Shown: positions 47,710 to 64,000 of the stretch, piece by piece | How the letters are laid out: each line of letters opens with the position of its first letter | Position numbering within the stretch: the stretch's first letter is position 1 | Assembly (NCBI GenBank): GCA_028068195.1 | Contig: JAPTTX010000090.1 | Coordinates: 59,856 to 123,855, forward strand | Direction of reading: 5' to 3' | Length of the DNA stretch: 64,000 nt | Source of the DNA: Gammaproteobacteria bacterium | Lineage (GTDB): Bacteria > Pseudomonadota > Gammaproteobacteria > Acidiferrobacterales > UBA6901 | Made by a program: the position numbers and the translations under genes | Notes under the pieces: generated by a model | The model's input: only the letters and a program-made list of their open reading frames with translations | Told to the model about the DNA's origin: nothing | Database searches by the model: none

Positions 47710-47783
47710 GGCGCCTGCCGGAAAACCGCAGCGACGTTGTGCTGCCTTCCCGCGCCCATGTCCCGGCGCTTTATCGAATCCGG

Positions 47784-47812: not shown

Positions 47813-47892
47813 CGCGGGGGACGGATCATCCCCCACACGGGCCTTGGGCGCACGTATCCTCAACTGCAACTTATCAGCAAGGAGAATCCATT

Positions 47893-50893: not shown

Positions 50894-50903
50894 TATCTAG
50901 AAA
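50894..50903. repeat. target-site duplication, right copy (TATCTAGAAA)
   Basis: Identical to 49353-49362. Confidence 0.8.
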
Positions 50904-50918
50904 CGCTCAAGCACCATT

Positions 50919-51137: not shown

Positions 51138-51248
51138 TTCAGCCCCCGAGCGCGAGCGAGGGTGGCGTGCGGAACTGAACTACACGATCGCACCGCGGCG
51201 CAGGACCCGCAGGCGAACCAAAATAGGATAGGTTATTTTTTACGCGCC

Positions 51249-52271
51249 CTAACCGCCGGTAGCAGACATGAAGCGCACAATCTTCTGTGGCATCTCGCGG
51301 AACTCATGCCGCTCCGGTTTGAGATCAATTGCGGCCCGGATCGCCGCTACCAGCTCGGTATCGCAGGCACCCGCGCGCAGTAACGGCCGAAACTCGTACT
51401 TCTCGTTCTGTCCCAGACACATGTATAGTGTCCCGTCCACCGTCAAACGCACGCGATTGCAAGTAGCGCAAAAATGTTGCGAGATCGGCGTGATGAATCC
51501 GACGGAAAAATTTCCGTCCGGCGTTTGCAAATAGCGGGCGGGTCCACCGCCCGGCACAATGCCATCAACCAGATTAAAGCGCTGCTGCAATTGGTGCTTC
51601 CTCGGCTGTAGATCCAAGTATTGAGCGTTGCGGCCAGACTCGCCCACGGGCATCGTTTCAATCAGGCGCAATACAAAGCCATGGCCCATGCAAAACTCAA
51701 CCATGCCGTCGATCTCGTCATCATTCACACCGGAAAGCGCCACCATATTGATCTTGATCGGCGCGAATCCGGCCTCTTTCGCCGCCATCAATCCAATGAT
51801 GACACGGTCGAGACAATCACGCCCGGTAATGCGGGCAAAACGCTCGTGCTTAAGTGAATCAAGACTCACATTGATGCGGGTGATGCCTGCCTCCCTGAGC
51901 GCCTCGGCATGCTTGCCGAGCTGCGTCGCATTAGTGGAAAGCGAAATATCCCGGATTCCGGGCAGGCGGTGCAGCCGCGTCGCCAGCTTCGCTAGGTTAT
52001 GCCGTAGCAGCGGTTCGCCACCGGTAAGACGAATGCGGTTTATTCCCAGTCGCGCAAACACGAGAAGCAGGCGCTCAATCTCATCGAAGGTAAGCCAGTT
52101 TTCCCGTTCTTCGAAGTCATTAGATTTCTTCGGCAAACAATACATGCAGCGCAGGTCGCAACGGTCGGTAACCGAAAGACGCAGATATTCGATCCGTCGC
52201 CCAAAACGGTCGACAAGGTTGGATTCAGGATTATTCATGCCGGCAGGCCTTTCAGACACGGGCTGCGGCAT
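51249..52271 (-). CDS. moaA: GTP 3',8-cyclase MoaA (radical SAM)
   Basis: CDLRCMYC radical-SAM cluster motif, a C-terminal CATCNRVRLT cluster motif, and a terminal GG. ATG at 52238 (MNNPES...) is an alternative start. Confidence 0.93.
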   Translation of the reverse strand: MPQPVSERPAGMNNPESNLVDRFGRRIEYLRLSVTDRCDLRCMYCLPKKSNDFEERENWLTFDEIERLLLVFARLGINRIRLTGGEPLLRHNLAKLATRLHRLPGIRDISLSTNATQLGKHAEALREAGITRINVSLDSLKHERFARITGRDCLDRVIIGLMAAKEAGFAPIKINMVALSGVNDDEIDGMVEFCMGHGFVLRLIETMPVGESGRNAQYLDLQPRKHQLQQRFNLVDGIVPGGGPARYLQTPDGNFSVGFITPISQHFCATCNRVRLTVDGTLYMCLGQNEKYEFRPLLRAGACDTELVAAIRAAIDLKPERHEFREMPQKIVRFMSATGG

Positions 52272-52390
52272 CTTCCCATCCCTGCATCTGCACCTAGCTT
52301 ACCCAGTTCCATATTTTTCGGAAATACCCAACGTTGCTTGTCCAGGAATCGTCTTAACACGTTGTTGACTGCGCCTGTTGTCGCCGTAAG

Positions 52391-52588
52391 CTAATTCATT
52401 TTCCGGCACCCAGATCTTCTGGAACCTTCTTCCAGATCAACGTCGGACGACTCCCCTCGCACGCAGTTCTGGAACGCCTTAATGGACGCACCGAGATCGC
52501 CGCCAAGACTGCGAAGCTTTTTGGTACCGAAAATCAGCAAAACAATTGCCAAGACAATCAGCCCATGCCAAATACTGAACTCACCCAT
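52391..52588 (-). CDS. twin-arginine translocase TatA/TatE-family protein
   Basis: [40 protein letters not shown] is close to the TatA consensus. AGGAG lies 8 nt upstream of the ATG at 52588. Confidence 0.8.
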
Positions 52589-52652
52589 TTCAGGTTTCTC
52601 CTGACAGTTTTCAAAACATTTCACCGAAAGGCCGAAACGATACGCCCGAGAC

Positions 52653-52782
52653 CTATCGGATCCAGCGTTCGAGGGCTACTTTGTTGCCCGCATGCGCCTT
52701 GATCCAGCGCTCACCCTTTGTGGTTTGCTCAGGCTTCCAAAACGGCGCCCGCATCAAACGCTGCATGCTGCACGCGCACCAT
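52653..52782 (-). pseudogene. moaE: moaE remnant (internal deletion, out of frame)
   Basis: An ATG 4 nt after the moaD stop encodes MVRVQHAAFDAGAVLEA followed by a stop, which is a MoaE-like N-terminus. A shifted frame encodes [32 protein letters not shown] followed by a stop, which is a MoaE-like C-terminus. Only 130 nt remain where about 450 nt are expected. Confidence 0.55.
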
Positions 52783-52786
52783 CGGA

Positions 52787-53041
52787 TCAGCCTCCCGTCA
52801 TCGGAGGGAAAAAGGCGACCTCATCGCCGTCCGCCACCGTTGTCTCGGCGCTCGCCATCGCGCAGTTGACGGCGATCCGCACCTGTGCCGCGTCCCTAAG
52901 CACCTCGCCCCATGGCGCCCCGCGTTGTCTAAGTGCTGCAATCAGGCTGCGCACATCCTCTACTCCAGAAGGGAGTGCCAAGTGCTCCCGCGCCATGCCC
53001 AGGCGCTCACGCAATTGAGCGAAGTAAAGTATCTGTACCAT
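52787..53041 (-). CDS. moaD: molybdopterin synthase sulfur-carrier subunit MoaD
   Basis: 84 aa. MVQILYFAQLRERLG...DGDEVAFFPPMTGG, with the terminal GG. Confidence 0.9.
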   Translation of the reverse strand: MVQILYFAQLRERLGMAREHLALPSGVEDVRSLIAALRQRGAPWGEVLRDAAQVRIAVNCAMASAETTVADGDEVAFFPPMTGG

Positions 53042-53786
53042 GGCGTTCTCCACAGGTCGAACATGAATCGTTGCGACGCAAGCGGATCCGACGGCTCACA
53101 TATCCGAGACCATCAAAGATCACCATCTCGCTGTCGAGCCGTGCCGGCAGATTCAGTATCTGTTTCAACACCTCGAGTGCCTGCCAGCATCCAAGCAATC
53201 CCGCCATCGGGCCGAGAATACCGCCTTCGACACATCCCTGGGTCGTGTTGCGGTCCGGTATTTGGGGCCAAACGCATTGGTAACATGCCCCGCCGGGAAC
53301 GAATGCAGCGAGTTCGCCGGTGAACCTCGATAGCGCCGCGGACACCAGAGGTTTGCAGGCCTGCACGCAGGCGGCGTTAACAAGATAGCGCGTCGGAAAA
53401 TTGTCGCAGCCGTCGGCCACAAGATCGTAACAAGCCACGATTTCCGCGATGTTATCCGCACACAGGCGTGTATGCTCGGTAACGAGCACCCCGGGATTGT
53501 TTTCGTTGATACGCCGTGCGAGTCGCGCGGTCTTGGGCTTTCCGATATCGGTCGTGGTGTAAGCGATCTGACGATGCAGGTTGCTGAGCATAATCTTGTC
53601 GCCGTCCGCAACTCCCAACGTGCCCACGCCGGCAGCGGCGAGATAGCTCGCGAGCGGCACGCCCAATCCGCCCACACCGACCACGAGTACGCGCGCGTCG
53701 AGCAGCCGTTGCTGGCCTTCCGCACCGACCTCGTCGAGCAAGATCTGCCGCACGTAACGGATGAACTGATCCTCAGTCAGCGCCAT
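53007..53786 (-). CDS. moeB: molybdopterin-synthase adenylyltransferase MoeB (ThiF family)
   Basis: RYVRQILL, GVGGLGVPLASYLAAAGVG, LSNLHRQ, and CYQC...CSTCG zinc motifs. Overlaps the moaD start by 35 nt. Confidence 0.9.
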   Translation of the reverse strand: MALTEDQFIRYVRQILLDEVGAEGQQRLLDARVLVVGVGGLGVPLASYLAAAGVGTLGVADGDKIMLSNLHRQIAYTTTDIGKPKTARLARRINENNPGVLVTEHTRLCADNIAEIVACYDLVADGCDNFPTRYLVNAACVQACKPLVSAALSRFTGELAAFVPGGACYQCVWPQIPDRNTTQGCVEGGILGPMAGLLGCWQALEVLKQILNLPARLDSEMVIFDGLGYVSRRIRLRRNDSCSTCGERHGTDTLLRSIA

Positions 53787-54246
53787 GTCGCCACACCCCA
53801 CTTTTGCCTCCCGTTTTCTCTAAAAAGGAGGGCTTCCGATCATCATTTTCAGGTCGACTGCCTTGCGCATATCGTAGGTCGTGAGCGCCGCCATCTCCAC
53901 GCCTGTCTCGCCAGCGATCCGGCAGGTGGCGGAAACCCTCAGCATGCCGATCGCCGCATTGAACCCGATCTTAATGCTCGCTATTCTCCGCAATAGCGAA
54001 TGACGTAACGGAACCAGTTCGGCACAACGCCTGACCGCCTGAATACCGGCGATCTGCGCCACCGCCGGGACATCGCCTTTTGTGGCTCTCAGTCATAATC
54101 AAACACAATATCCCCAAACGCTTGCGCACCTGCGCCATCGCCGTGGCAGAGCGCACCATCACGGCTTTTCCTGATACGTTCGCCATACGCGTCTTGCCCG
54201 GTGTATCAAGATGGGCAAGACGGTTTACGGCCGCTGTGGTATTCAT
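53773..54246 (-). pseudogene. moaC: moaC (cyclic pyranopterin monophosphate synthase) with frameshifts and an internal deletion
   Basis: MoaC homology is split over three frames. The first break is at the A4 run (54078-54081). The second is near 53833-53834, where IGPSFLEKTGGKSGVW continues in another frame. See findings for the other lesions. Confidence 0.75.
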
Positions 54247-54258
54247 CTGGCGACCTTC

Positions 54259-55548
54259 TCAGGAAAGCAAATCCGAGAAAGGAAGGAACCGGACCGTTTG
54301 GCCATGGGCCACTCTTTGACACTCCGGCACCTCCACCAGTCCCTCCGCCCAGGTGGCGGAACTGAGCACTGCCGAACCCTGGTTGGGATAGATCTCTGCG
54401 ATGGCGGCGCCATCCTCTGTCGAACGCAGCCGCGCGCGCAAATACTCCCGGCGCTTTTTTTCCCCTGACCACTCAAAGCCCGCCACGACTGGGAAGCTTC
54501 GCGGCGCCGCATCCGCGCCACCGTGACCGCGCGCAACACCCTGACTACACAGAATGAAGGGACGCGCAAACAGGCAAAAGGTCACGAATGCCGACACGGG
54601 ATTGCCCGGCAACCCCAAAAACGGGGTCGTGCCGATGCGTCCGAAAACAAATGGCTTGCCGGGCTTGATCGCCACCTGCATCAGATCGAGATTCCCCAGA
54701 TCCCGGATAACCGCCTTGACGTGATCCTCCTCGCCAACGGAAACCCCGCCAGCAGCGATCACGACGTCTGCAGCCTCGGCTGCACGTTCCAGAACCTCTC
54801 GGGTTTGCCCCGCATCGTCCGGTACCTGGCCGATATCAAGCCGCTCGCACCCTAATCCCTGAATCAGCCCTGACAGCGTGTAACGATTGGAATTGTAAAT
54901 CTGGCCCGGACCCAGAGCCGCGCCCGGCTCAACCAGCTCGTTGCCCGTGCACACCAGCGCCACGCGCAGCCGCCGGAATACCGGCAGTCGAGCCAATCCC
55001 ATGGAACCCGCAAGCCCGAGATCTGGGGCGCGCAGGCGCCTGCCGCGGCTAAGGAGGCAGGCGCCCACGGCGATGTCTTCGCCCTTGTGCCGAACGTTCA
55101 CGCCGCACGTCACCGGACCTGTGATTACCACCGCTCCATCGGACTCGGTCCGGCAATGCTCCTGCATCACCACGGCGGCGGCACCGGACGGCAGCCAGGC
55201 CCCGGTGAATATGCGCGCCGCAGTGGCGGGCGCGAGCGGCCGCCCGACCTGGCCGGCTGCAATGCGCTGCGACACCCCAAGGCGAAGCTGGCCGGACTTT
55301 CCGCAATCGTGGCTTGTCAGGGCGTAACCATCCATGGCACTGCTATCTGCGCCGGGAACGTTTATGGGAGAGCATTGGTCCTCCGCGAGCACACGCCCCA
55401 ACGCAGATTCCGTCGCCACGACCTCCGTTTCCACCATGGGCAGCGCGCGCACAACCAAGTGCCGTCGGGCCTGTTCAACGGAAAGGACAGGTGCCGAATC
55501 GAAATCGCTTGCGCCTGAAGCGGAGTACATGGTGGGTGACCCGCTCAT
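54259..55548 (-). CDS. moeA: molybdopterin molybdotransferase MoeA
   Basis: 429 aa with SAMDGYAL, GEDIAVG, GQIYNSNR, GGVSVGEEDHVK, IKPGKPFVFG and GLPGNPVSAF motifs. Confidence 0.93.
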   Translation of the reverse strand: MSGSPTMYSASGASDFDSAPVLSVEQARRHLVVRALPMVETEVVATESALGRVLAEDQCSPINVPGADSSAMDGYALTSHDCGKSGQLRLGVSQRIAAGQVGRPLAPATAARIFTGAWLPSGAAAVVMQEHCRTESDGAVVITGPVTCGVNVRHKGEDIAVGACLLSRGRRLRAPDLGLAGSMGLARLPVFRRLRVALVCTGNELVEPGAALGPGQIYNSNRYTLSGLIQGLGCERLDIGQVPDDAGQTREVLERAAEAADVVIAAGGVSVGEEDHVKAVIRDLGNLDLMQVAIKPGKPFVFGRIGTTPFLGLPGNPVSAFVTFCLFARPFILCSQGVARGHGGADAAPRSFPVVAGFEWSGEKKRREYLRARLRSTEDGAAIAEIYPNQGSAVLSSATWAEGLVEVPECQRVAHGQTVRFLPFSDLLS

Positions 55549-55561
55549 TCGGCCATGAGCC

Positions 55562-56095
55562 TCACGTTTCGAGCAACCGCGGCAGCATTTCCACGAGGTT
55601 GCACGGCCGATTTCGATAGTCGAGCTGATCCTTGATCAGGCGATCCCACGCGGTGCGGCAGGCTCCAGTGGAACCGGGAATGCAGAAGATGAACGTATCG
55701 CGCGCGATCCCGGCGAAGGCGCGCGACTGCAGCGTCGAGGTCCGGATCTCCTCGTAGGAGATGGCCCGGAACGTCTCGCCGAAACCCTCGATCACTTTGT
55801 CGAGCAATGGCCGGATCGCCTCCGGTGTGCGGTCGCGCCCAGTGAGGCCTGTGCCGCCGGTGGTCAGAACCGCGTTGACTTTGTCGTCGGCAACCCAGCG
55901 CGATACGATCGCGCGCATCTGATAGATATCGTCGCGCATGATGGCTCGCTCGGCGAGCACATGCCCGGCAGCCTGCAGCCGCTCGATCAGCGCTTGCCCG
56001 GAGGTGTCGCTTTTCTCGTCACGGGTGTCGGAAATCGTTAATACCGCGATCCGTAACGGCACAAACGGTCGCTCCTTGTCACCCCCAGCATGCAT
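55562..56095 (-). CDS. moaB: molybdenum cofactor biosynthesis protein MoaB (MogA-like)
   Basis: 177 aa with IAVLTISDTR...TTGGTGLTGRD...IPGSTGA motifs. AGGAGG lies 6 nt upstream of the ATG. Confidence 0.9.
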   Translation of the reverse strand: MHAGGDKERPFVPLRIAVLTISDTRDEKSDTSGQALIERLQAAGHVLAERAIMRDDIYQMRAIVSRWVADDKVNAVLTTGGTGLTGRDRTPEAIRPLLDKVIEGFGETFRAISYEEIRTSTLQSRAFAGIARDTFIFCIPGSTGACRTAWDRLIKDQLDYRNRPCNLVEMLPRLLET

Positions 56096-56423
56096 GGCTG
56101 CCTCCTGTATGACTAAATTCGGCTGATCAGACGGGCCGCGATGCGCTGGGCCACCGCAAGGCGAAACTCACCCGCACCCCACCTCCAGCATCAATCAGTG
56201 CTGGCAACCCACCAACGTCAAATTTGTAGGTTATGCCGACCGAGACCACCCAGGGGACTATTGCCTGCCGCAACCGTCGGCACCTTACTCATTGCAATGG
56301 CTATAGCCAAATACGCTGAACGCGAAGCAGCGCGATGGCCAAGGCCGTGGGGTTCATTTTAGTGCTGGTGCTAGAGCGCATGACGATTCCTCCGAGTTCT
56401 TGAGGCCCTACCTCATCGCCGTG

Positions 56424-59400
56424 TTACACTTGGAGCTTCGGCGCCTTAAGGAAGCGGTCAGCCGGCGGCGTCGTTCTCTCCACCTTGACCCGGGTGTCGT
56501 AGTAGCACGCGCTTCCCCCTACCGGGTCTTCCATGCATGTACCCCAACCGTCCTTATCGGTCAGACTTGGATCAAGACGCATCACCGCGTTAAGCCGGGT
56601 ATGGGTATTCAGGTACCGATCGCCACGATAAGTCGTGCCATTGATGGTCCATTCCCCCGAGTTGTAATGCCAGCGTCCGAATGCCGCGGGAAAGGAAACT
56701 ACACCTGGTCGTACTCCCGGCATGATCTGGACCGGCGCTTTCAGCCCTCGCGGATAGGTGGCTGACCGCACGAGCACCCAGTCACCATCCTTCACCCCCA
56801 ATTGTCGCGCGTCCATCGGGTTGATTTCGGCGTAGGATTCCGGCATGAGCTCGACCAGCCATTTGTCGGCCCAGGTCCGGGATTTACTGTGGATGGGCTG
56901 CTTGTACGTGATCAGCGTAAACGGATAGTCCTTGGCACGATCCACGGAGTCGTACAGCGTTCCGTCGTGGAAACGGATGTCTTCATGCTTCGCGACCGGG
57001 GAGAAAAGTTCTCCAGTGAGCGCGTTATGCGTCGTGCCAACGATCGGATTGTAGATCTGGCACGGCAGCTTTTCCTGGCCGTACCGGTGGGTCATGACCT
57101 TGGGCACCGGGGTAGCCGGCACGTAACCCACGTCATAGTCCTCGAACCGGCCCCCGCGGCCCAATACATAGGCCACTTTTCGCCATTGCGCTTCGGTCAG
57201 CGCCCGGCCGTAGCGTGGCTTCCAGCGGGCAATAGATTTCCATTCGAGATCGGTGGACGCGTCGGGCACAGGACCCGTTTTTACCAGCGTTTTGCCGCGA
57301 CGTTCGAGGTACGACGGATAATAGGCGATGTTGGCCGCCATCTTGAGGTAGAAGTCTTCACGGGTATTGAGTTCTCCTCCTTCCATGAATGCATTTTTGC
57401 CGAACCCCGGTACACCGAGTTTTTTCGCCACGTCGATCAGGAACTGCTCGACTGACATCGGTTCGCCATCCGGCGTCTTTGCTGTCAGAGGTTCCACGAC
57501 GGGCTGCCGCACCCCAATCGCGGACATCGTATAGGTAGGCCATCCAGGCAACGCCCCCCACGCTTCCAGGTAACCCGTGTCCGGGACGATATAGTCCGCG
57601 TACGAAGACGTCTCGGAGATGAGAATGTCGCTTGCGATGAATAACGGCAGCTTCTTGAGGTCCTTGACGAGCCGGAACAGGGGCAGATTCTCATCAGGGT
57701 AGCCGCTCATCCCGGGTGGCGCCGACCATAACGGATTGCCTTCGTGCATCATCAGGATCTTGACAGGATAGGGATACTGATACCACGCGCCCGCAAACAG
57801 CTCCTGCCAGATGCCAAACCCGAACGGGTACCAGGGCCGCGGCGCGGGAAATGGACTCTTGCCCTGGGCCACCGCCTCCTTATATATCGAGGTGTCCTCG
57901 TAAAAACTTCCTTCCCGCGAGATCGTCACGCCTGCCGGCACGCGGCGCTTGGGTGCTGGCCACGTGTTGAGATTATAAGGGGCGCCCTTATATCCACCCA
58001 TGAAGTCGGCCGGCGCGCCACCGGTTGCGGTCCCACCGACCCAATCCATGTTGCCAACCAGGAAGTTCAACGTCATGATGCCGCGCCCGGTATAAAACCC
58101 GTTGGTATGCTTTACGGGACCGCGATAGAAGTCGGCCACCGCCCGGCGGCCATGGGCAGTGAACTCCCTCGCAAGACTGATGATGGTGGGTTCGGGCACG
58201 CCAGCGATCTGCGCATACTCCGCAGAGGATTTGGACCGGGCCTCCTCCCAAAGCCATTGGAAACCCGTTCGGCACGGGATGCCATTCACCCTGATCGGCG
58301 CGGGCGACAGCGTCCCGCTAGGCCAGAGGCTGCCCGCCGAGCTGCGCTCGGCGGGAGCGGGTCTGCCGGAAGCGGCGTCGATGACCACCGGCGATGCCGC
58401 CGTCGGGCTCGATGCTCTGGCCAAACCTGCTGCCTCCGCCGTCAGAAACTTTCTATGCAGCGGATGCTTGGGATCCTCAACCACCAGCCAGGTGGCATTG
58501 GTAAAATCAACTTCTCCCTTCCGCTTCGCAGCCGCGTGGCTTGGATAGGACAGAAATGGTGCATTGTACAGCTGGTTCTCCAAGATATGGCGGATCATCC
58601 CCATGACGATGCCGCTGTCGCCACCCGGCTTGACCTTCACGAACTGGTCGGCCCGTATCGCTCCGTTGGGCGCCCGGGCGTCCACCAGGACGAACTTCAG
58701 ATCTCCACCGTTGATGAATTGCAGATTCGCCGGATTTCCCCCCTTCGAGGAGGCGAGCGAAACCTTGCGGCTCAGCGTCTGCATCGGGAAGTTCGCCTGG
58801 TAGATATTCGCGCCAAACCAGATGATAAAGTCGGCGTTGATAATATCCGGCTTTACCATGTTGGTTTTCCCGTCCAGTGACTGGCGCGTCGCTACGTGGT
58901 GACTCAGTTCGCAGATACTGACGTGTGGGATGGCGTTGACCGATCCGAAGGCATTCGCAAAGCGCGTGAGAAAGGTCGACTGTCCCGGCTCAGCCCGCCC
59001 CCAGAACATGGTAAACTGATTGGTAATGGGTCCGAGATCCGGGTGTTTGGGATCCACCGGCGTGTTCGGGCCTCGCCCCTCTTTCCACAGGTCCTTGAAC
59101 CCTTCCACGTAACGGGTCTCCTCCCCGGCCACGTCCTTGAACAGATGGCCGCCGTTCGTGACCTCATCGATCAACTGGGTCCAGCTGATGGTCTTCCACT
59201 TATTCGACCCTCTGGGTCCCACCCGTTTTAACGGGAAAAACACGCGATTGCGGTCATACAGCGACTGGCGGCCCGCTTGGCCGCGTGCGCACAAGGAGTG
59301 GGCTTCCCGGAATTTAAGCGATTCCTCCACCGGCGTGCTGTACGTCAAGTGCGGTTCGGTCGTGTTGGGGTGATAGGGGTTTCCGTCGAGCTTCATCAGC

Positions 59401-59639
59401 ACGCCGTTGAACACGCGCGCCTCGATACCGCAATCGCTGCGGCATTGGCGACACACGCTGTAACGCACTTCGACGTTCTTCCACAATTCAGTGCGCATCG
59501 GGTAGGCATAAACCCCCTCGCGATGAAAGAGACCTGGCAACCAGGGCCATGAACCCCAGAGCGCAGCAATACCGCTTCCAGCCGCAACGCTGCCCAGCAT
59601 GAAGGTCCTGCGGGAGACTTTTTGCTCTAATATGCTCAT
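56424..59639 (-). CDS. Tat-exported molybdopterin (bis-MGD) oxidoreductase catalytic subunit, TtrA-like
   Basis: 1071 aa. It has a twin-arginine signal (VSRRTFMLGSVAAGSG) and an N-terminal CxxCxxxC...C 4Fe-4S motif (CRQCRSDCG...LCARG). Its size, the BCA gene order and blocks such as LDGNPYHPN, LKRVGPRGSNKWKTISW, LPLFIASD..SETSSYADYIVPDT and EDFYLKMAANIAY resemble tetrathionate reductase TtrA as I remember it. Confidence 0.88.
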   Translation of the reverse strand: MSILEQKVSRRTFMLGSVAAGSGIAALWGSWPWLPGLFHREGVYAYPMRTELWKNVEVRYSVCRQCRSDCGIEARVFNGVLMKLDGNPYHPNTTEPHLTYSTPVEESLKFREAHSLCARGQAGRQSLYDRNRVFFPLKRVGPRGSNKWKTISWTQLIDEVTNGGHLFKDVAGEETRYVEGFKDLWKEGRGPNTPVDPKHPDLGPITNQFTMFWGRAEPGQSTFLTRFANAFGSVNAIPHVSICELSHHVATRQSLDGKTNMVKPDIINADFIIWFGANIYQANFPMQTLSRKVSLASSKGGNPANLQFINGGDLKFVLVDARAPNGAIRADQFVKVKPGGDSGIVMGMIRHILENQLYNAPFLSYPSHAAAKRKGEVDFTNATWLVVEDPKHPLHRKFLTAEAAGLARASSPTAASPVVIDAASGRPAPAERSSAGSLWPSGTLSPAPIRVNGIPCRTGFQWLWEEARSKSSAEYAQIAGVPEPTIISLAREFTAHGRRAVADFYRGPVKHTNGFYTGRGIMTLNFLVGNMDWVGGTATGGAPADFMGGYKGAPYNLNTWPAPKRRVPAGVTISREGSFYEDTSIYKEAVAQGKSPFPAPRPWYPFGFGIWQELFAGAWYQYPYPVKILMMHEGNPLWSAPPGMSGYPDENLPLFRLVKDLKKLPLFIASDILISETSSYADYIVPDTGYLEAWGALPGWPTYTMSAIGVRQPVVEPLTAKTPDGEPMSVEQFLIDVAKKLGVPGFGKNAFMEGGELNTREDFYLKMAANIAYYPSYLERRGKTLVKTGPVPDASTDLEWKSIARWKPRYGRALTEAQWRKVAYVLGRGGRFEDYDVGYVPATPVPKVMTHRYGQEKLPCQIYNPIVGTTHNALTGELFSPVAKHEDIRFHDGTLYDSVDRAKDYPFTLITYKQPIHSKSRTWADKWLVELMPESYAEINPMDARQLGVKDGDWVLVRSATYPRGLKAPVQIMPGVRPGVVSFPAAFGRWHYNSGEWTINGTTYRGDRYLNTHTRLNAVMRLDPSLTDKDGWGTCMEDPVGGSACYYDTRVKVERTTPPADRFLKAPKLQV

Positions 59640-59640
59640 G

Positions 59641-60855
59641 TCACGCTTCCTCCTTCATTGACCCAGACTCAATGGCGGCAGACTGCGGGCTATCACCACC
59701 GCCCTGACCTGACCAGACCAACACCCAGCCTTTGTCCCAGGGCAGCAGCAACAGCGCCAACACGATCAGCAGCGCCATGATGCCCACAATTCCGATCGCG
59801 ACCTGAATGCTGTCCATGCCGAACACCGGGAGCGCATACCGCACCAAGCCCTGCGACACCTTGGGCTGCAATTCCCCGCCGATCACCGTATCAAATCGCA
59901 TGGCAAAGACGCTCACCAGCACCAGAAGTGCCGTCACGCTCGCCCCCCAGGACGAGCGGCGCACGGCCCCGAAAAACGTCATCACCATGGCCACCACCAG
60001 AAGGCCCAGTTGGAGCCCCAGGTACATGAACGCGAGCGGTCCGCCCGGGAAAAAAATCTGACTAAATCCCCGGAACACCGGAGCGGAGGTATAGGCAGAA
60101 ACCCCGGAATTCACGACGTCTACGATGTCAAGGAACAGATCGACGAAGATCATCCACATCAGCACTCTCATCAACCCGTCGACGATGCCGCTATCCACTT
60201 TCCCAGTCCCCACACCGCCTTCGATGATCACGTAGGCCAGTATCATCAGGGCGATACCGGACACGATCGCCGAGACGATAAACATTGGCATCATTAAAGG
60301 GTTGCTCCACAGCGGGCGCGCCTTGATCGCTCCGAACACGAAGCCGACGTAGCCGTGGAAAGCAAAAGCAAGCAAGATGCCGATGATCGATAAAATGACG
60401 AGTATTCCGTGGTCCCGATGCTGCGAGGCTTCGGAGGTGTCGCGCGACCCCAGGGTCAGAAACTTATGCCACGCTTTGCGCCAGCCGTGTGCGTATTCGG
60501 CCAAAAATATGTTGTCGAGGCGGAATATATAGTAGATTTCGGCCACTACCAGCACCATGTACGCCGTCCAGATCACGATGAACAAGCCGAGTGGAGAGTA
60601 GGGGATATGATCCCGCGTATAGAGCTCCCAGAATCGCGATCTCTGTACCGCCTCCGACAGCGGTCCGAGCGGAGCACCAATCAGGAATACCAAGGTCATG
60701 ATCGCGCTCAGTCTCGTGAGCGGTTCGAATTTCTTCAGGCCGAAAACCTTCGATAGCGATCCCACGATGAAGGATCCCGCAACCAAACCGGAAAGGAACG
60801 GATAGATGACCAGCGGCAATCCCCAGTAGATGTGTTCAAGGCCTAGCATGCGCAT
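59641..60855 (-). CDS. NrfD/PsrC-family quinol-interacting membrane subunit (TtrC-like)
   Basis: 404-aa polytopic ORF (HIYWGLPLVIYPFLSGLVAGSF...). GGAGGAG lies 8 nt upstream of the ATG. Its stop is 1 nt before the catalytic-subunit ATG. Confidence 0.88.
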   Translation of the reverse strand: MRMLGLEHIYWGLPLVIYPFLSGLVAGSFIVGSLSKVFGLKKFEPLTRLSAIMTLVFLIGAPLGPLSEAVQRSRFWELYTRDHIPYSPLGLFIVIWTAYMVLVVAEIYYIFRLDNIFLAEYAHGWRKAWHKFLTLGSRDTSEASQHRDHGILVILSIIGILLAFAFHGYVGFVFGAIKARPLWSNPLMMPMFIVSAIVSGIALMILAYVIIEGGVGTGKVDSGIVDGLMRVLMWMIFVDLFLDIVDVVNSGVSAYTSAPVFRGFSQIFFPGGPLAFMYLGLQLGLLVVAMVMTFFGAVRRSSWGASVTALLVLVSVFAMRFDTVIGGELQPKVSQGLVRYALPVFGMDSIQVAIGIVGIMALLIVLALLLLPWDKGWVLVWSGQGGGDSPQSAAIESGSMKEEA

Positions 60856-60873
60856 GATGGCGTCTCCTCCGTA

Positions 60874-61938
60874 TCAGATCTCGTCGTCCACATCGGCGAC
60901 CCGGCTGTTGTTGGCGTTGCTCGTATAGGGGTACACCATCCGCTGGACATTCGGGTCGGGGTCGGTCGTGATCTCGCCGCTCATGCCGATGTAGAACACG
61001 TGCGGCTTGGTCCCGTACTCCGGGTGACGGACGACGCGCGGGTAGTGCGCCAGCAATTGGGAAACCTCGCTGTTGGGATCGTTGAAATCTCCGAACACCC
61101 GCGCCCGACCCACGCAGGTGGTCACGCACGCGGGCAACAGTCCCGCATCGACGCGCTCGACGCAAAACGTGCATTTATCGGCAGTATGCGACACCGGATC
61201 GAGATAGCGGGCGTCGTAGGGGCAGGCGTTAACACAGGTGCCGCAGCCGATGCACAGGCGGTGGTCGACCAGCACAATGCCGTCCTGGCGCTTGAACGTG
61301 GCCTTGACAGGGCACACTTCCACGCACGGCGGGTCATCGCAATGGTTGCAGATTTTCGGGACTGCCATGACCCGCACTTCCTGGCGGTAGCGCTGACCGT
61401 TATCTAGGACGACATCGCCGTTCGGATCCGGCACCGTATCTCCGGTCTGATACACGTCCACCCACGTGCGGAACGTACCGAGCGCCACATTGTTCTCGGA
61501 CTTGCACCCCACGACACACGCCTGGCACCCCACGCATTTGCGCACATCGATTACCATTCCCCAATGATGCTTGGGATGACTTTTCGGTATGCGGTCGAAC
61601 CGGTCATGATAGATAGGCAGATTGTTCGGATTGAGAACCGTGCCCCAGTCGTCCCAGCCGTCTTTGGTTTTCAGGCGCGGATTGTTCCATCCCTCCCAGC
61701 TCGGGTTCTCCGCGGGATTGACGCCGGTCTTTCCCGAAAGCCAGTAGAGCCCACTGTCGGCCGGCGGATCCTCCGCTGTTCCGCCTCTCGGACTCCTTGT
61801 GCCGGCGCTGGCTTGTACTGCCTTAGGAACGGACTGCAGCGCCGTTAACCCCAGCCCCCACAACAGGGATTTCTTCAGAACGTCTCGGCGTGGTTCGCTT
61901 GATTCTTTCCCACCGCTCTTCGGAGATTGCTTGGACAT
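60874..61938 (-). CDS. 4x[4Fe-4S] ferredoxin-type electron-transfer subunit with Tat signal (TtrB-like)
   Basis: Four Cys clusters (CVGCQACVVGC, CNHCDDPPCVEVCP, CIGCGTCVNACP, CTFC...C..C) and an N-terminal EPRRDVLKKSLL motif. The second ATG (61938) has GGAGG at 6 nt, and the ORF also opens at 61944. Confidence 0.9.
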   Translation of the reverse strand: MSKQSPKSGGKESSEPRRDVLKKSLLWGLGLTALQSVPKAVQASAGTRSPRGGTAEDPPADSGLYWLSGKTGVNPAENPSWEGWNNPRLKTKDGWDDWGTVLNPNNLPIYHDRFDRIPKSHPKHHWGMVIDVRKCVGCQACVVGCKSENNVALGTFRTWVDVYQTGDTVPDPNGDVVLDNGQRYRQEVRVMAVPKICNHCDDPPCVEVCPVKATFKRQDGIVLVDHRLCIGCGTCVNACPYDARYLDPVSHTADKCTFCVERVDAGLLPACVTTCVGRARVFGDFNDPNSEVSQLLAHYPRVVRHPEYGTKPHVFYIGMSGEITTDPDPNVQRMVYPYTSNANNSRVADVDDEI

Positions 61939-62401
61939 GTCCATCCTCCTCGTTCAGGATCCCCCGCCACAGCTCGGTTGCGCGTTTCCCGATGCGACGG
62001 TTTAGACCTTTATTTGGATTACAACGCAATACGTGATCCTGCCCAACCACGCAGCTTGGGTGGAATGTGCCCGGCGCAATGTACCCTCGCGCTTTGGGGT
62101 TTCAGAACCTCCCGCGCACACCCGGCAGCTGCCATTGCGAATTATGTGCCCCTTTATGACTTCTGTATGACAAATTTATTAACATACGTTCGGACAGGAT
62201 TTTTGCCTTTTATCAAAAATTAACGGTATTTTTGCCTCAAAATAGTTAGGCAACGGCGTGAATCGGGCTGCGCGGCTTTGGGTCGATTTTTTTGGCTCGA
62301 TTTTTCAAGCACAAAGCTGGGGCGTGTTGCAAATCCCTAAAACCATCCGACACAATGGCCAAACCTTGTATGGGGAACGGGTTATCTGAAAGGAGAACTT
62401 C

Positions 62402-63037
62402 TTGTCTCAAACAGCGACCGCAAGCCTCGGGGAACGTGAAGCGCTCTCGGAAATCTTCTTGCTTTTTTCGGCGCTATTCGATGGACCGCCGCCGACTCAA
62501 ATAGTCCCGAAGCTGCTAACGGAAACCTTTCCTGAATTGAGCAAAGCCGTAGGGCTGACTCCGCTTCGGGAAGCCATTGACCCAGCCGACTTCGCTACAG
62601 AATATGAGCCCTTGTTCCTCATCCCCGACGCCACGAATCCGCTCAGTCTCTACAGCAATCACTACGCTACCAGCGAGAAAAGCGGGGGGAAGGATCTCGC
62701 CGCGGAATTGGTCGTGCTGGCGGCAGCCTTGCAAATACCCTGGAGAAAGACCGAATTCGTCCCTGGCCGGGCCTACCCGGTCACCCCCGATCATCTGAGC
62801 GTCGAATTCGCGTTGCTGTCCGTCCTGGTCCTGAGAAATCCCGACACCGAAATCGCGGGCAAATCGGTCTTCATCTGGGCTGATCGGATGGCCAGAGAGG
62901 CCACGCAGACGCTCGAGAAACTGCATCAGATCCTGCAGGCGCTTCCGCGAAGATATCCGGCTTACGATACCGTCATTGCCCTTGCGCTTGCCTTCATGCA
63001 AACCTACGTGCAGGTGGAATTTTCGACGTCACCGTGA
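62402..63037 (+). CDS. TorD/DmsD-family redox-enzyme maturation chaperone
   Basis: 211 aa from a TTG start with AGGAG 6 nt upstream. EYEPLF and PDHLSVEFALLSVL motifs are typical of the TorD-like family. Confidence 0.78.
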   Translation: MSQTATASLGEREALSEIFLLFSALFDGPPPTQIVPKLLTETFPELSKAVGLTPLREAIDPADFATEYEPLFLIPDATNPLSLYSNHYATSEKSGGKDLAAELVVLAAALQIPWRKTEFVPGRAYPVTPDHLSVEFALLSVLVLRNPDTEIAGKSVFIWADRMAREATQTLEKLHQILQALPRRYPAYDTVIALALAFMQTYVQVEFSTSP

Positions 63038-63538
63038 TCCGGATTCTGTCTTACGGATAAAGAACGCCCAGCCCTTCGGCTGGATGGGCGTGATCTGCAG
63101 CAATGAATAGCCAGTGGCGCGACACCAGGCATCCACTTCATCCTTCGAGGCGGAACAGTTGCTAACCAGTTTCATGATCTCGCCGGGCCGCATCCCGTCC
63201 AGGATTAGCTTTGCCTCCACGACTGGCCCTGGGCAGTGCAGTCCGCGCACATCCAAGGATACGTTGACCTTGATCGGCGCCCGCTTACCCTTGCGAATGT
63301 AGTAACCGTTAGCCCTCGCTGTGTCTTTCCCGATTTTGAGGATTTCATTGTCCGTCAGCTTCATCCACGAGAACAAGTCATCCCGCGTACCAGGACAATC
63401 CGAGATCAATAGCAGTATCTCACCCGGCTTGAGATCGTCCAGCACCCTCTTGGCGCCGAGCAGGGTATGCGGACATTTCATTCCAGTGAGATTTAAAGTG
63501 ACATTAGCGGTGATTGGCATTGATCGAGCTTTCGTCAT
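63029..63538 (-). CDS. tandem TusA/SirA-like sulfurtransferase-domain protein
   Basis: Two TusA-like repeats. Domain 1 reads LNLTGMKCPHTLLGAKRVL..GEILLLISD. Domain 2 reads LDVRGLHCPGPVVEAKLIL..GEIMKLVSN. The start is uncertain (ATG 63538 or TTG 63547). Confidence 0.8.
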   Translation of the reverse strand: MTKARSMPITANVTLNLTGMKCPHTLLGAKRVLDDLKPGEILLLISDCPGTRDDLFSWMKLTDNEILKIGKDTARANGYYIRKGKRAPIKVNVSLDVRGLHCPGPVVEAKLILDGMRPGEIMKLVSNCSASKDEVDAWCRATGYSLLQITPIQPKGWAFFIRKTESGSR

Positions 63539-64000
63539 GGCTTTCAATCAAATTTCAACGGAAAAATTGATAGGAGAAAATTTCAATCATCATCTCGTAA
63601 AAATGCTCACATTCAACTGGGGTGTCCGCCCTCCTTGTGCCTGCCGAGCCATCGGGCTCAGAAAAGTCTGGTTTTTAGCAAGTCCCGACACCAATTCTCC
63701 GCGATCACCACCCATGCCGGCTTCACAACATTATGACCCACTGCATGTCATGCCATGCGTGCCAAATTGTTTGACCGCGCATAGGACGTAGGCTTTTGGG
63801 CCGCAAGCGGATTGGCGCCCGGGGTGGTACCGGCGAACGGCGCCAGGCCACTGGAAAGTACCGCTACAATGATGATCCCCGCCGGCCACTGATCTCTTCA
63901 TGATTATCTCCAAGCAAATCAGACCGGAATTCGACGACGCAGTTCTCTCCAAAAAAAATGGGGGCCGGAGCCCCCGCAAATTCACTCTGGGAGGAGAAAT

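What the first reader, a model, noticed from the sequence alone, without database searches (positions are those of the whole stretch)
51249..63547. Self-contained Mo/sulfur module: Ttr-type BCA oxidoreductase, TorD chaperone, tandem TusA, private TatA and a Moco biosynthesis set
About 12 kb of one locus combines several components.
- A periplasmic (Tat-signal) bis-MGD enzyme in FeS-NrfD-catalytic order, the order used by tetrathionate reductase ttrBCA.
- A divergent TorD-like maturation chaperone.
- A two-domain TusA sulfur carrier.
- An extra TatA.
- moaA, moaB, moeA, moeB and moaD.

No ttrRS-type two-component regulator is visible in the window. A TusA-type cytoplasmic sulfur relay next to a periplasmic Ttr-like enzyme is not a combination I know as described. 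It suggests a thiosulfate, tetrathionate or polysulfide-handling system whose direction and substrate are open. The TtrA assignment rests on size, gene order and remembered motifs, not on an alignment.
Basis: partly seen in the sequence, partly recalled or inferred. Interest (0 to 1): 0.7.

Follow-up and report, generated by a model that had tools for sequence, protein, structure and literature searches.

The report
Island-borne Ttr-like molybdoenzyme with maturation kit
A mine-drainage bacterium carries, on a mobile genomic island, a three-subunit periplasmic molybdenum respiratory enzyme with its own partly decayed cofactor-building and export genes. The enzyme is a relative of tetrathionate reductase, not a true one, its substrate is unproven (arsenate is as likely as tetrathionate), and the TusA gene next to it most likely serves cofactor synthesis.

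Summary
All the listed genes are present at 51249-63547. The window is from an Acidiferrobacterales MAG from mine drainage, and the module lies on an island integrated at tmRNA.

- **The kit is not self-contained.** moaC is a pseudogene and moaE is a deletion remnant. A porin and a cytochrome-c-like gene are destroyed, and mobA is absent. A relative (L103, catalytic subunit 93% identical) shows the fuller ancestral layout.
- **The enzyme is Ttr-like, not TtrA.** The catalytic subunit belongs to the TtrA/SrdA/arsenate-reductase lineage, but it scores 574 bits against a TtrA cut-off of 1750 and is 33.5% identical to real TtrA. It keeps the Gly-Arg pocket motif (ArrA R165) that verified tetrathionate reductases lack.
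- **Its clade is uncharacterised** and spread across phyla in acid mine drainage.
- **Neighbours in relatives.** TorD, TatA/TatC, Moco genes and oxyanion-sensor two-component systems recur. TusA does not (1 of 80 loci).
- **Arsenic context.** ars genes recur next to enzymes with the same pocket, including on enterobacterial plasmids and on this island.
- **TusA.** The tandem TusA, with MoeB, MoaD and a rhodanese in the intact relative, fits sulfur supply for molybdopterin.

Verdict: a new variant of a known kind. Its substrate is unresolved; I lean to a metalloid oxyanion. Interest is moderate.

The parts
43389..43741 (+). tmRNA (ssrA), the integration site and left border of the genomic island
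   Evidence: ARAGORN and Rfam RF00023 at 241 bits. smpB lies just upstream.
43907..45094 (+). P4-type tyrosine integrase of the island
   Evidence: Pfam Arm-DNA-bind_3, Phage_int_M and Phage_integrase.
49483..50880 (+). IS4-family DDE transposase inside the island
   Evidence: PF01609. It is followed at about 50900-51145(-) by a truncated ABC-ATPase N-terminus, read from the sequence.
51249..52238 (-). moaA (GTP 3',8-cyclase)
   Evidence: TIGR02666 at 375 bits, above the 284 cut-off. dN/dS is 0.13 against L103.
52391..52588 (-). tatA/E-family Tat translocase subunit, 65 aa
   Evidence: TIGR01411 at 63 bits, above the 53.9 cut-off. The position is conserved in L103.
52653..52786 (-). moaE remnant: N-terminal ~16 codons plus C-terminal 37 codons, with about 314 bp deleted between them
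   Evidence: Sequence reading. The intact moaE in L103 is 149 aa, and blastn shows L103 17909-18223 missing from the window.
52787..53041 (-). moaD (ThiS-fold sulfur carrier, C-terminal GG)
   Evidence: ORF translation. The L103 orthologue carries PF02597. dN/dS is 0.15.
53007..53801 (-). moeB (MoaD adenylyltransferase, ThiF family)
   Evidence: PF00899 at 232 bits and the MoeB NCBIfam models.
53820..54246 (-). moaC pseudogene, split over two frames, with substitutions and an internal deletion
   Evidence: Fragmentary MoaC model matches in two overlapping ORFs and comparison with the L103 moaC.
54259..55548 (-). moeA (molybdenum insertase)
   Evidence: MoeA_N, MoCF_biosynth and MoeA_C domains.
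55562..56095 (-). moaB
   Evidence: TIGR02667 at 269 bits, above the 222 cut-off.
56198..56324 (-). 3' remnant of an outer-membrane porin gene; about 1.1 kb has been deleted
   Evidence: L001 and L103 carry a porin gene, itself split into two reading frames there, between the catalytic gene and moaB. Synteny is broken at window 56324-56436.
56424..59639 (-). Catalytic Mo-bisPGD subunit A, 1071 aa. It has Tat signal SRRTF, an FS0 cluster at C63/C66/C70/C117, predicted Mo ligand C243 and pocket residues G214-R215.
   Evidence: Pfam and NCBIfam, alignment to ArrA 6CZ7, pocket alignment and dN/dS of 0.055.
59641..60855 (-). Membrane quinol/quinone subunit C, NrfD/PsrC family, about 9 TM segments
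   Evidence: PF03916 at 102 bits and a crude hydropathy scan.
60874..61944 (-). Four-cluster ferredoxin subunit B with a twin-arginine leader (PRRDVLK)
   Evidence: Fer4_11. The best NCBIfam match is TtrB at 241 bits, below the 416 cut-off.
61945..62401 (.). Divergent control region between B and torD. It holds a weak Fnr-like half-palindrome at 62203-62216.
   Evidence: About 90% conserved with L103 and L095. The FNR-box match is not above chance window-wide.
62402..63037 (+). TorD/DmsD/NarJ-family maturation chaperone
   Evidence: PF02613 at 31.1 bits, above the 22.2 cut-off. In the closest other genera the homologue follows A directly.
63029..63520 (-). Tandem (two-domain) TusA-family sulfur carrier
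   Evidence: 2 x PF01206. The CP(x)P cysteine and a second cysteine are invariant in each domain across 28 homologues.
63642..63901 (-). Dead cytochrome-c-like gene upstream of tusA
   Evidence: Alignment with the intact 130-aa CxxCH ORF of L103 and L097 shows a 2-bp deletion, Cys-to-Arg and Cys-to-stop changes in CxxCH, and a ~130-bp deletion.

Best explanation
This is a horizontally acquired anaerobic-respiration module in an acidophilic Acidiferrobacterales bacterium.

**The enzyme (shown by homology)**
- B (4x[4Fe-4S]) and A (Mo-bisPGD, Cys243 ligand) are exported folded through Tat.
- They dock on the NrfD-type subunit C.
- Inferred: C exchanges electrons with the quinone pool, so quinol electrons flow C to B to A to a periplasmic oxyanion.

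**The other genes are a maturation kit**
- TorD holds apo-A until the cofactor is inserted.
- TatA adds export capacity.
- MoaA, MoaB, MoeA, MoeB and MoaD raise molybdopterin supply. MoaC, MoaE and MobA must now come from elsewhere in the genome.
- Inferred: the tandem TusA delivers persulfide sulfur to MoeB-activated MoaD, together with a rhodanese in intact relatives. It does not handle the respiratory substrate.

**Regulation.** An Fnr-type regulator just beyond the window probably gives anaerobic induction.

**Substrate.** The enzyme is not a true tetrathionate reductase. I commit to a tetrahedral metalloid oxyanion, with arsenate first and selenate second, at about 0.45. Tetrathionate or another polythionate is at about 0.3. 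Another or unknown substrate takes the remaining ~0.25.
For: **Architecture and families:**

**Island context**
- Core genes up to smpB, then tmRNA, an integrase and IS elements.
- The same island carries arsR-arsD-arsA-...-arsC 4-8 kb past the window end, plus an Fnr-like gene divergent from tusA.

**Selection.** dN/dS against the L103 lineage is 0.055-0.087 for A, B and C, and 0.10-0.28 for the kit genes.

**The kit recurs among 80 related loci**
- TorD-like proteins in about 40.
- tatA in about 15 and tatC in 8.
- moaA, moeA or moaB in about 12.
- PhnD-like PBP plus kinase plus regulator in about 25.

**Not TtrA**
- 574 bits against a 1750 cut-off, and 33.5% identity.
- The pocket is GR...H...C...HH in 154 of 194 homologue clusters. 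PGAP-named TtrA from ttrRS-ttrBCA plasmid loci instead has NT...AHGAYCGLAYR.
- phmmer aligns R215, H239 and C243 with ArrA R165, H189 and C193.

**ars linkage of enzymes with the same pocket**
- On the Citrobacter arsenatis plasmid, BCA is divergent from arsR of arsRDABC.
- In Cytobacillus, BCA sits in an ars island.
- In Alicyclobacillaceae the order is arsR-arsC-B-C-A-torD-tatA-tatC-moaA.

**TusA as Moco sulfur donor**
- PMC5372717 and PMC3831636 describe this role.
- The intact relative has moaA-rhodanese.
- Sulfurimicrobium lacus has rhodanese...TusA2-DUF3579-moaA-moaD beside another Mo enzyme.
Against: - No member of this clade has been assayed.
- The GR motif also occurs in a Psr/Phs-like enzyme (L087), so it may be ancestral rather than arsenic-specific.
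- ArrA residues Y166, S190 and K198 are not conserved.
- Most related loci (about 85-90%) have no ars neighbour. Co-location on resistance islands could be hitch-hiking: the neighbours are cus, mer and copA in A. sulfuriphilus and chrA in L103.
- Tetrathionate is stable and abundant in acid mine water, and TtrA is the best curated match.
- The tandem TusA also sits beside the dsr operon in another genome, so a dissimilatory role is possible.
- With moaC, moaE, the porin and the cytochrome gene dead, the window copy may be on its way to loss.
- I could not place the Anaeromyxobacter PSR-1 or Pyrobaculum arsenate reductases, or SrdA, in my tree.
Confidence: 0.5

Rival explanations
1. The locus encodes a genuine tetrathionate (or thiosulfate/polythionate) reductase. 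The tandem TusA is a cytoplasmic sulfur relay that processes the sulfur product or substrate.
For: - TtrA and TtrB are the best curated matches, aligned over the full length.
- The order is BCA, both A and B have Tat leaders, and C has about 9 TM segments.
- The niche is acid mine drainage.
- Sulfobacillus relatives are called Ttr in the literature (PMC5114278, PMC4378227).
- TusA/DsrE proteins react with tetrathionate in Metallosphaera (PMC4175335).
- A TusA2 homologue lies next to dsrABEFHC.
Against: - The scores are a third of the TtrA cut-off, and there is no TtrRS.
- The pocket differs from the ttrRS-linked TtrA compared here, and PMC12949373 reports that both verified Ttrs lack the GR motif.
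- The Sulfobacillus-type 'Ttr' subclade has yet another pocket (GE..GNGQICNNN).
- TusA is absent from 79 of 80 related loci.
- TusA is cytoplasmic and the enzyme periplasmic, and no thiosulfate importer (YeeE/TsuA) is nearby.
Confidence: 0.25
2. The enzyme runs in the oxidative direction. It would act as a thiosulfate:quinone or arsenite:quinone/cytochrome oxidoreductase (Arx-like) that feeds electrons into the chain. The adjacent small cytochrome c of intact relatives would be its partner.
For: - Intact relatives carry a CxxCH 130-aa ORF next to tusA.
- Ca. Acididesulfobacter has several cytochrome c genes upstream of BCA.
- At acid pH the quinone potential rises, so thiosulfate oxidation becomes feasible. 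This is an inference from the potentials quoted in PMC12949373.
- The host order consists of sulfur and iron oxidisers.
Against: - The cytochrome gene is dead in the window, yet A, B and C remain under strong purifying selection.
- An Fnr-type regulator suggests anaerobic use.
- The NrfD-type anchor is typical of quinol-oxidising reductases.
- Pfam does not recognise the 130-aa ORF as a cytochrome.
Confidence: 0.12
3. In this genome the module is a decaying relic with no current function.
For: - Five lesions: the moaC pseudogene, the moaE deletion, the porin deletion, the dead cytochrome gene and the lost rhodanese.
- IS elements and a truncated ABC gene lie alongside.
Against: - A, B, C, TorD, TusA, TatA, MoaA, MoaB, MoaD, MoeA and MoeB are all intact.
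- Their dN/dS against L103 is 0.055-0.28. This measures constraint over the whole divergence, not recent history.
- The lost functions are ones a housekeeping copy can supply.
- Transcripts 91-96% identical to B and A occur in mine-drainage metatranscriptomes. This is weak evidence and comes from relatives.
Confidence: 0.1

Closest known systems
Tetrathionate reductase TtrBCA/TtrRS of Salmonella enterica (and Shewanella sp. ANA-3)
   Same: - Gene order is FeS, then membrane, then catalytic subunit.
- Both A and B have Tat leaders.
- The membrane anchor is NrfD-type with about 9 helices.
- The Mo ligand is a cysteine.
- It is the best curated HMM match.
   Different: - Identity is 33.5%, with 574 bits against a 1750 cut-off.
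- The pocket has GR and CELSHH instead of NT and CGLAYR.
- There is no TtrRS.
- B carries a ~120-aa N-terminal extension.
- Dedicated TorD, TatA and Moco genes are present.
Ttr-like respiratory arsenate reductases (Pyrobaculum aerophilum PAE1265; Anaeromyxobacter sp. PSR-1; Geobacter sp. OR-1) and SrdBCA selenate reductase of Bacillus selenatarsenatis. [quoted passage not shown]
   Same: - It belongs to the same broad lineage by best-model match.
- It has the GR motif reported for all As-binding members (PMC12949373).
- The order is BCA.
- It is ars-linked in several lineages.
   Different: - The relationship to those specific proteins is untested here, because their sequences were not obtainable.
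- None appeared among the 120 listed hits of either search, which reached down to about 33-37% identity, but only about a quarter of entries carry names.
- The clade is confined mostly to acid mine drainage organisms.
'ttr operon' tatA-ttrB-ttrC-ttrA-ttrD-tatC of Sulfobacillus acidophilus TPY (PMC5114278; PMC4378227)
   Same: - It is an acidophile Ttr-like BCA with a private TatA/TatC and a TorD-family 'TtrD'.
- It falls in the same ~50%-identity clade (the S. benefaciens AMDSBA1 locus L059).
   Different: - The Sulfobacillus-type branch has a different pocket (GE..GNGQICNNN).
- It has no Moco genes and no TusA.
- Its function rests on transcriptomics only.
Arsenate respiratory reductase ArrAB (Shewanella sp. 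ANA-3, PDB 6CZ7)
   Same: - It is the closest solved structure by both sequence and fold.
- R165, H189 and C193 align with R215, H239 and C243.
   Different: - It scores only 97 bits against a 1600 ArrA cut-off.
- The window enzyme is ~250 aa longer and has an NrfD membrane anchor in BCA order.
- Y166, S190 and K198 are not conserved.
- The structural model is of low confidence (pLDDT 66).
E. coli IscS-TusA-MoeB-MoaD sulfur relay for molybdopterin (PMC5372717, PMC3831636), and the MoeB-rhodanese fusion in MOCS3
   Same: - TusA-family carrier, MoeB and MoaD are encoded together.
- Intact relatives add a rhodanese.
   Different: - The TusA is a tandem two-domain protein with an extra conserved cysteine per domain.
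- It falls below the TusA, YedF and YeeD equivalog cut-offs.
- Its role here is inferred from gene context only.

Membership tests
Bona fide tetrathionate reductase (TtrBCA) | Catalytic subunit reaches the curated TtrA equivalog score (NF011567, 1750 bits) | tested here: not met
   573.8 bits, although aligned over the full length. Identity to PGAP-named TtrA is 33.5%.
Bona fide tetrathionate reductase (TtrBCA) | Gene order ttrB-ttrC-ttrA, with Tat leaders on both A and B | tested here: met
   The order is 61944 to 56424 on the minus strand. The leaders are SRRTF in A and PRRDVLK in B.
Bona fide tetrathionate reductase (TtrBCA) | Nine-helix membrane subunit (criterion quoted in PMC12949373) | tested here: inconclusive
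   A crude Kyte-Doolittle scan gives about 9 segments. No dedicated topology predictor was available.
Bona fide tetrathionate reductase (TtrBCA) | Active-site pattern of verified Ttr (no Gly-Arg at the ArrA R165 position) | tested here: not met
   The window has W-G214-R215-A, whereas TtrA from ttrRS-ttrBCA loci has -NTS. The criterion comes from PMC12949373.
Bona fide tetrathionate reductase (TtrBCA) | Adjacent TtrS/TtrR two-component regulator | tested here: not met
   There is none in the window or in the 9.5 kb beyond it; an Fnr-type gene sits there instead. Many relatives have PBP-HK-RR systems.
Bona fide tetrathionate reductase (TtrBCA) | Tetrathionate reductase activity | not testable with these tools
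   This needs an enzyme assay.
Ttr-like arsenate reductases / TtrA-SrdA-archaeal Arr lineage | Gly-Arg motif equivalent to ArrA G164-R165 | tested here: met
   phmmer alignment to 6CZ7. G214 is invariant and R215 at least 90% conserved in the 20-sequence alignment of the acid-mine clade, although derived sub-branches replace the Arg. 154 of 194 homologue clusters carry GR/H/C/HH. Caveat: the motif is also present in a Psr/Phs-like enzyme.
Ttr-like arsenate reductases / TtrA-SrdA-archaeal Arr lineage | Phylogenetic clustering with PAE1265, PSR-1 TtrA or SrdA | not tested
   The reference sequences could not be retrieved. They were absent from the named top hits.
Ttr-like arsenate reductases / TtrA-SrdA-archaeal Arr lineage | Arsenic-linked genomic context or regulation | tested here: inconclusive
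   An ars operon lies on the same island 4-8 kb away, but behind IS remnants. Adjacency is strong in L090, L067, L054 and L073, and absent in most loci.
ArrA (respiratory arsenate reductase, NF041714) | Curated score of 1600 bits | tested here: not met
   97.5 bits.
PsrA/PhsA (polysulfide/thiosulfate reductase, NF012032) | Curated score of 694 bits | tested here: not met
   206 bits in fragments.
TorD/DmsD/NarJ maturation chaperones (PF02613) | Pfam gathering score | tested here: met
   31.1 bits against 22.2. Homologues follow A in L002-L007 and L024.
TusA family (PF01206) | TusA fold with the CPxP cysteine | tested here: met
   There are two domains, 118.9 bits in total. The cysteines are invariant. 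The TusA, YedF and YeeD equivalog cut-offs are not met.
Complete Moco (bis-MGD) biosynthesis set | Intact moaA, moaC, moaD, moaE, moeB, mogA/moaB, moeA and mobA | tested here: not met
   moaC is a pseudogene, moaE is a remnant, and no mobA is present. moaA, moaB, moaD, moeA and moeB are intact.
tmRNA-integrated genomic island | ssrA followed by a tyrosine integrase and foreign cargo, with a direct repeat at the far end | tested here: inconclusive
   tmRNA and the integrase are adjacent. No attR was found within the available 30 kb.

The most novel reading that the evidence does not exclude
The GR/H/C/HH-pocket enzymes would be an unrecognised family of respiratory metalloid-oxyanion (arsenate, possibly selenate) reductases. 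The family comprises the acid-mine clade containing this window plus the sister clade on enterobacterial and Vibrio replicons. It would be spread by horizontal transfer together with its own maturation kit. It would account for arsenate respiration in organisms lacking ArrA (for example Citrobacter) and for As(V) reduction at low pH.
Probability: 0.3. Interest if true: 0.65.

Novelty: new variant of a known kind. Interest (0 to 1): 0.4.

Why it matters
**Mis-annotation.** Annotation pipelines and metagenome surveys label this whole group 'tetrathionate reductase'. The pocket comparison shows that the label is unsafe. If the acid-mine clade reduces arsenate or selenate, models of arsenic and selenium mobility in mine drainage would change, as would counts of 'ttrA' genes.

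**Plasmid-borne relatives.** The sister clade next to arsRDABC on conjugative plasmids of Citrobacter, E. coli, Salmonella and Enterobacter is a ready, genetically tractable test system.

**What a portable kit needs.** The locus shows what a complex molybdoenzyme carries with it: a chaperone, a Tat subunit, Moco genes and sulfur carriers. It also shows which parts are lost first once a host supplies them.

Tried and rejected
- **TusA in related loci.** tblastn and phmmer found no tandem TusA in 80 related genome loci, and only one single-domain TusA, 7 kb away.
- **Plasmid search with the 24.5-kb region.** Megablast matched only the tmRNA.
- **Far end of the island.** No repeat of the tmRNA 3' end (attR) was found in the window or in L083.
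- **FNR boxes.** 24 matches against 15.8 expected window-wide, which is not significant. The one site upstream of B is only partly conserved.
- **Promoters and riboswitches.** The sigma-70 scan was uninformative. The Rfam scan found only tmRNA and no Moco riboswitch.
- **Structure.** The AlphaFold model of A has mean pLDDT 66, with the active-site loop below 50. Foldseek ranks ArrA first, but TM-scores are similar for all DMSO-reductase-family members, so the model gives fold confirmation only.
- **Expression.** Metatranscriptome runs held only 91-96%-identical fragments from relatives.
- **PSR-1 and OR-1 proteins.** The third homologue search, with the Citrobacter enzyme as query, did not surface them.
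- **Rejected: assembly artefacts.** The same lesions are present in a second deposited contig (100% identical over 10,972 bp) and in contigs from a mine-drainage run.
- **Rejected: Sre-, Psr- or Soe-type enzyme.** The Psr/Phs score is low, the enzyme has a Tat signal, and TtrA is the dominant match.

Full report
**1. What is there**

On the minus strand the order is:
- moaA (51249-52238);
- tatA (52391-52588);
- moaD (52787-53041, ending in GG);
- moeB (53007-53801);
- moeA (54259-55548);
- moaB (55562-56095);
- the 1071-aa catalytic subunit A (56424-59639);
- an NrfD-family membrane subunit C (59641-60855);
- a four-cluster ferredoxin B (60874-61944).

A PF02613 (TorD/NarJ) protein lies divergent from B at 62402-63037(+). 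A two-domain TusA lies convergent with it at 63029-63520(-). A carries an SRRTF Tat motif and a CxxCxxxC...C FS0 cluster. B carries a PRRDVLK leader.

- moaC survives only as a degenerate pseudogene split over two frames (53820-54246).
- moaE survives only as about 16 N-terminal and 37 C-terminal codons (52653-52786).

mobA is absent. The Moco set is therefore not self-contained.

**2. Where it sits**

- Window positions 1-43 kb are core chromosome: the nuo operon, glmM, ftsH, carB, dnaK, fur and smpB.
- A tmRNA gene (43389-43741) is followed directly by a P4-type integrase (43907-45094), then unknown ORFs, an IS4 transposase and a truncated ABC ATPase. The module is therefore cargo of an island integrated at ssrA.
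- NuoF and GlmM fall in 90% clusters named 'Acidiferrobacterales bacterium'. The DNA occurs in mine-drainage metagenomes.
- A deposited MAG contig is 100% identical over 10,972 bp and extends 9.5 kb further. That extension carries an Fnr-type regulator divergent from tusA, IS remnants, arsR-arsD-arsA-HMA-OsmC-arsC, another IS and a group II intron gene.
- No attR was found.

**3. The intact ancestor and the decay**

A related lineage (L103/L104, with A 93% identical in amino acids and about 85% in DNA) shows a fuller layout:

chrA ... Fnr | a 130-aa CxxCH ORF - tandem TusA, convergent with TorD | IS | B-C-A - porin - moaB-moeA-moaC-moeB-moaD-moaE-tatA-orf82-moaA-rhodanese.

Relative to this layout, the window:
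- has lost about 1.1 kb of the porin gene (remnant at 56198-56324);
- has lost about 314 bp of moaE;
- has further degraded moaC, which is already frameshifted in L103;
- has killed the cytochrome-like gene through a 2-bp deletion, Cys-to-Arg and Cys-to-stop changes in CxxCH, and a ~130-bp deletion (63642-63901);
- lacks the rhodanese.

The porin is itself split into two reading frames in L103 and L001.

The remaining genes are constrained. dN/dS against L103 is 0.055 for A, 0.087 for B and 0.087 for C. It ranges from 0.10 to 0.28 for moaB, moaA, moaD, tusA, moeA, moeB, tatA and torD.

**4. What the enzyme is related to**

- The best curated model is TtrA, aligned over the full length, but at 574 bits against a 1750 cut-off. 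PhsA scores 206, DmsA 138 and ArrA 97.
- PGAP-named TtrA from ttrRS-ttrBCA plasmid loci is 33.5% identical.
- Relatives at 47-93% identity come almost entirely from acid-mine organisms of many phyla. They include Acidithiobacillus sulfuriphilus (71%), Acidiferrobacter (70%), Sulfobacillus, Alicyclobacillaceae, Acididesulfobacillus, Actinomycetes, Nitrospirae and 'Acididesulfobacter'.
- In the 50%-identity library the clade collapses to essentially one representative (56% identical), with the next at about 43-45% identity. The wider family has 236 clusters at E<=1e-30.
- The DMSO-reductase literature names the lineage 'TtrA/SrdA/archaeal arsenate reductase'. Its known substrates are tetrathionate, selenate and arsenate (PMC7331816).

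**5. The active-site comparison**

A 2026 study of the second verified Ttr reports that a Gly-Arg pair (ArrA R165, an arsenate ligand) is present in Arr, Arx and Ttr-like arsenate reductases. The same study reports it absent from true Ttr (PMC12949373).

- phmmer against ArrA 6CZ7 aligns window R215, H239 and C243 with R165, H189 and C193.
- In my alignment and neighbour-joining tree, the window clade reads WGRA...PHVSICELSHH.
- A sister clade reads GGRI...EHTNxCELSHH. It includes a conjugative plasmid of Citrobacter arsenatis (the same protein cluster occurs in E. coli, Salmonella and Enterobacter), Vibrio, and acidophilic alpha- and betaproteobacteria.
- True TtrA reads -NTS...AHGAYCGLAYR.
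- 154 of 194 homologue clusters share GR/H/C/HH.

Derived sub-branches have altered the pocket:
- the Sulfobacillus type reads GE..GNGQICNNN;
- an Actinomycetes type reads YGMA..AADAICDLNRM;
- L064 and L066 have lost the cysteine ligand.

Two caveats apply. A Psr/Phs-like enzyme also has GR, so the motif may be ancestral. ArrA residues Y166, S190 and K198 are not conserved.

The AlphaFold model was too weak to add more than fold confirmation (pLDDT 66, with ArrA as top Foldseek hit).

**6. Neighbourhoods**

Across 80 related genome loci, BCA order is universal wherever the flanks are present.

| Neighbour | Loci |
|---|---|
| TorD-family gene | about 40 |
| tatA | about 15 |
| tatC | 8 |
| moaA, moeA or moaB | about 12, in at least four lineages |
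| PhnD-like periplasmic binding protein + histidine kinase + response regulator | about 25 |
| TusA | 1 (single domain, 7 kb away) |

The chaperone, Tat and Moco neighbours are therefore ordinary for this clade. A tatA-ttrBCA-ttrD-tatC operon has already been described in Sulfobacillus acidophilus (PMC5114278). TusA is not an ordinary neighbour.

ars genes recur beside enzymes with the GR/H/C/HH pocket:
- On the Citrobacter plasmid, B is 186 bp from a divergent arsR of arsRDABC, with GNAT and glutathione synthase genes nearby.
- In Cytobacillus the order is arsC-arsD-arsA-...-gshF-methyltransferase-MarR-GNAT-B-C-A-TorD.
- In Alicyclobacillaceae the order is arsR-arsC-B-C-A-torD-tatA-tatC-moaA.
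- The window's own island carries an ars operon.
- Several further loci have arsR alone.

Most loci have no ars neighbour. Other island contexts carry copper, mercury or chromate genes, so hitch-hiking on resistance islands remains possible.

**7. The tandem TusA**

- Its family (about 162 aa) is common in betaproteobacterial sulfur oxidisers.
- Both domains keep the CP(x)P cysteine plus a second invariant cysteine. Neither reaches the TusA, YedF or YeeD equivalog scores.
- The closest homologues (77-80% identical) keep the Fnr-TusA-TorD-BCA arrangement. That is vertical conservation within one lineage.
- Distant homologues lie in other settings. One is divergent from dsrABEFHCMK. Another sits between prmC and exbB.
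- In Sulfurimicrobium lacus the order is rhodanese-polyferredoxin-TusA-DUF3579-moaA-moaD. That cluster sits beside a Psr/Phs-like enzyme with a porin and TorD, and next to an Arr/Arx-like enzyme with arxXSR-like regulators.

In E. coli, TusA supplies the sulfur for the MoaD thiocarboxylate, and MOCS3 uses a rhodanese domain for the same step (PMC5372717, PMC3831636). The simplest reading is therefore that TusA (plus the rhodanese), MoeB and MoaD form the sulfur relay for molybdopterin. A more general or dissimilatory role cannot be excluded.

**8. Mechanism and verdict**

Shown by homology:
- a Tat-exported A/B pair on an NrfD-type quinone-interacting anchor;
- a chaperone, a Tat subunit and Moco genes as accessories.

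Inferred:
- electron flow from quinol to a periplasmic oxyanion;
- anaerobic control by Fnr;
- TusA acting in cofactor sulfuration.

The substrate is open. I weight a tetrahedral metalloid oxyanion (arsenate, then selenate) at about 0.45, tetrathionate or another polythionate at about 0.3, and another or unknown substrate at the remaining ~0.25. An oxidative direction (confidence 0.12) and decay into a relic (0.1) are separate rival readings rather than substrate options.

The finding is real, but it is less exotic than proposed. It is an uncharacterised variant within a known enzyme lineage, carried with a typical though unusually complete and now eroding maturation kit. Weak evidence of expression exists only for close relatives.

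Noticed in passing
window 43389-45094: smpB, tmRNA and a P4-type integrase mark the left end of a genomic island more than 30 kb long. It carries the module, IS elements and, beyond the window, an ars operon. No attR was found.
   Followed up: partly
window 63642-63901 (-): A 130-aa CxxCH (cytochrome-c-like) gene is intact and co-directional with tusA in relatives. In the window it is destroyed by a frameshift, two Cys codon changes and a ~130-bp deletion. Pfam does not recognise the intact protein.
   Followed up: yes
window 56096-56423; L001 6596-7713; L103 13312-14429: Relatives carry a porin gene between the catalytic gene and moaB, itself split into two reading frames there. The window keeps only its last ~126 bp. 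Sulfurimicrobium lacus also has an intact porin right after a periplasmic Mo enzyme.
   Followed up: partly
window 49483-51248: An IS4-family transposase is followed by the N-terminal ~80 codons of an ABC-transporter ATPase on the minus strand, apparently truncated. In L103 a rhodanese sits in this position.
   Followed up: partly
L090 (Citrobacter arsenatis plasmid NZ_CP037863.1, 28.2-38.1 kb): A Ttr-like B-C-A-chaperone operon is transcribed divergently from arsR of arsRDABC. PGAP annotates it only as DsrO, hypothetical protein and 'molybdopterin-dependent oxidoreductase'. The same protein cluster occurs on E. coli, Salmonella and Enterobacter plasmids. It is a candidate for ArrA-independent arsenate reduction.
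   Followed up: partly
L059, L032, L035, L037, L038, L047; L048, L055, L056; L064, L066: Sub-branches of the acid-mine clade have replaced the pocket residues: GE..GNGQICNNN in Sulfobacillus and YGMA..AADAICDLNRM in Actinomycetes. L064 and L066 lack the Mo-ligand cysteine and have no B or C genes. These changes suggest shifts or loss of function.
   Followed up: no
L087 (Sulfurimicrobium lacus AP022853.1, 2.347-2.364 Mb): The tandem TusA-DUF3579-moaA-moaD cluster lies between a Psr/Phs-like enzyme cluster and an Arr/Arx-like enzyme. The latter has a polyferredoxin and a phosphonate-binding protein, kinase and sigma-54 regulator set (arxXSR-like).
   Followed up: partly
L101 (8001-8489 and flanks): A tandem-TusA homologue sits divergent from a complete dsrABEFHCMK-type operon. 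This fits a role for the family in dissimilatory sulfur oxidation in that organism.
   Followed up: no
window 45204-48859: Several island ORFs (180, 134, 272, 259 and 93 aa) have high GC3, and none of those scanned (all but the 93-aa ORF) has a Pfam match even at E<=0.05. Their function is unknown.
   Followed up: partly
window 1-8000: The nuoN-nuoL region has strong positive AT skew (about 0.2-0.25) and lower G+C than the rest of the window.
   Followed up: no
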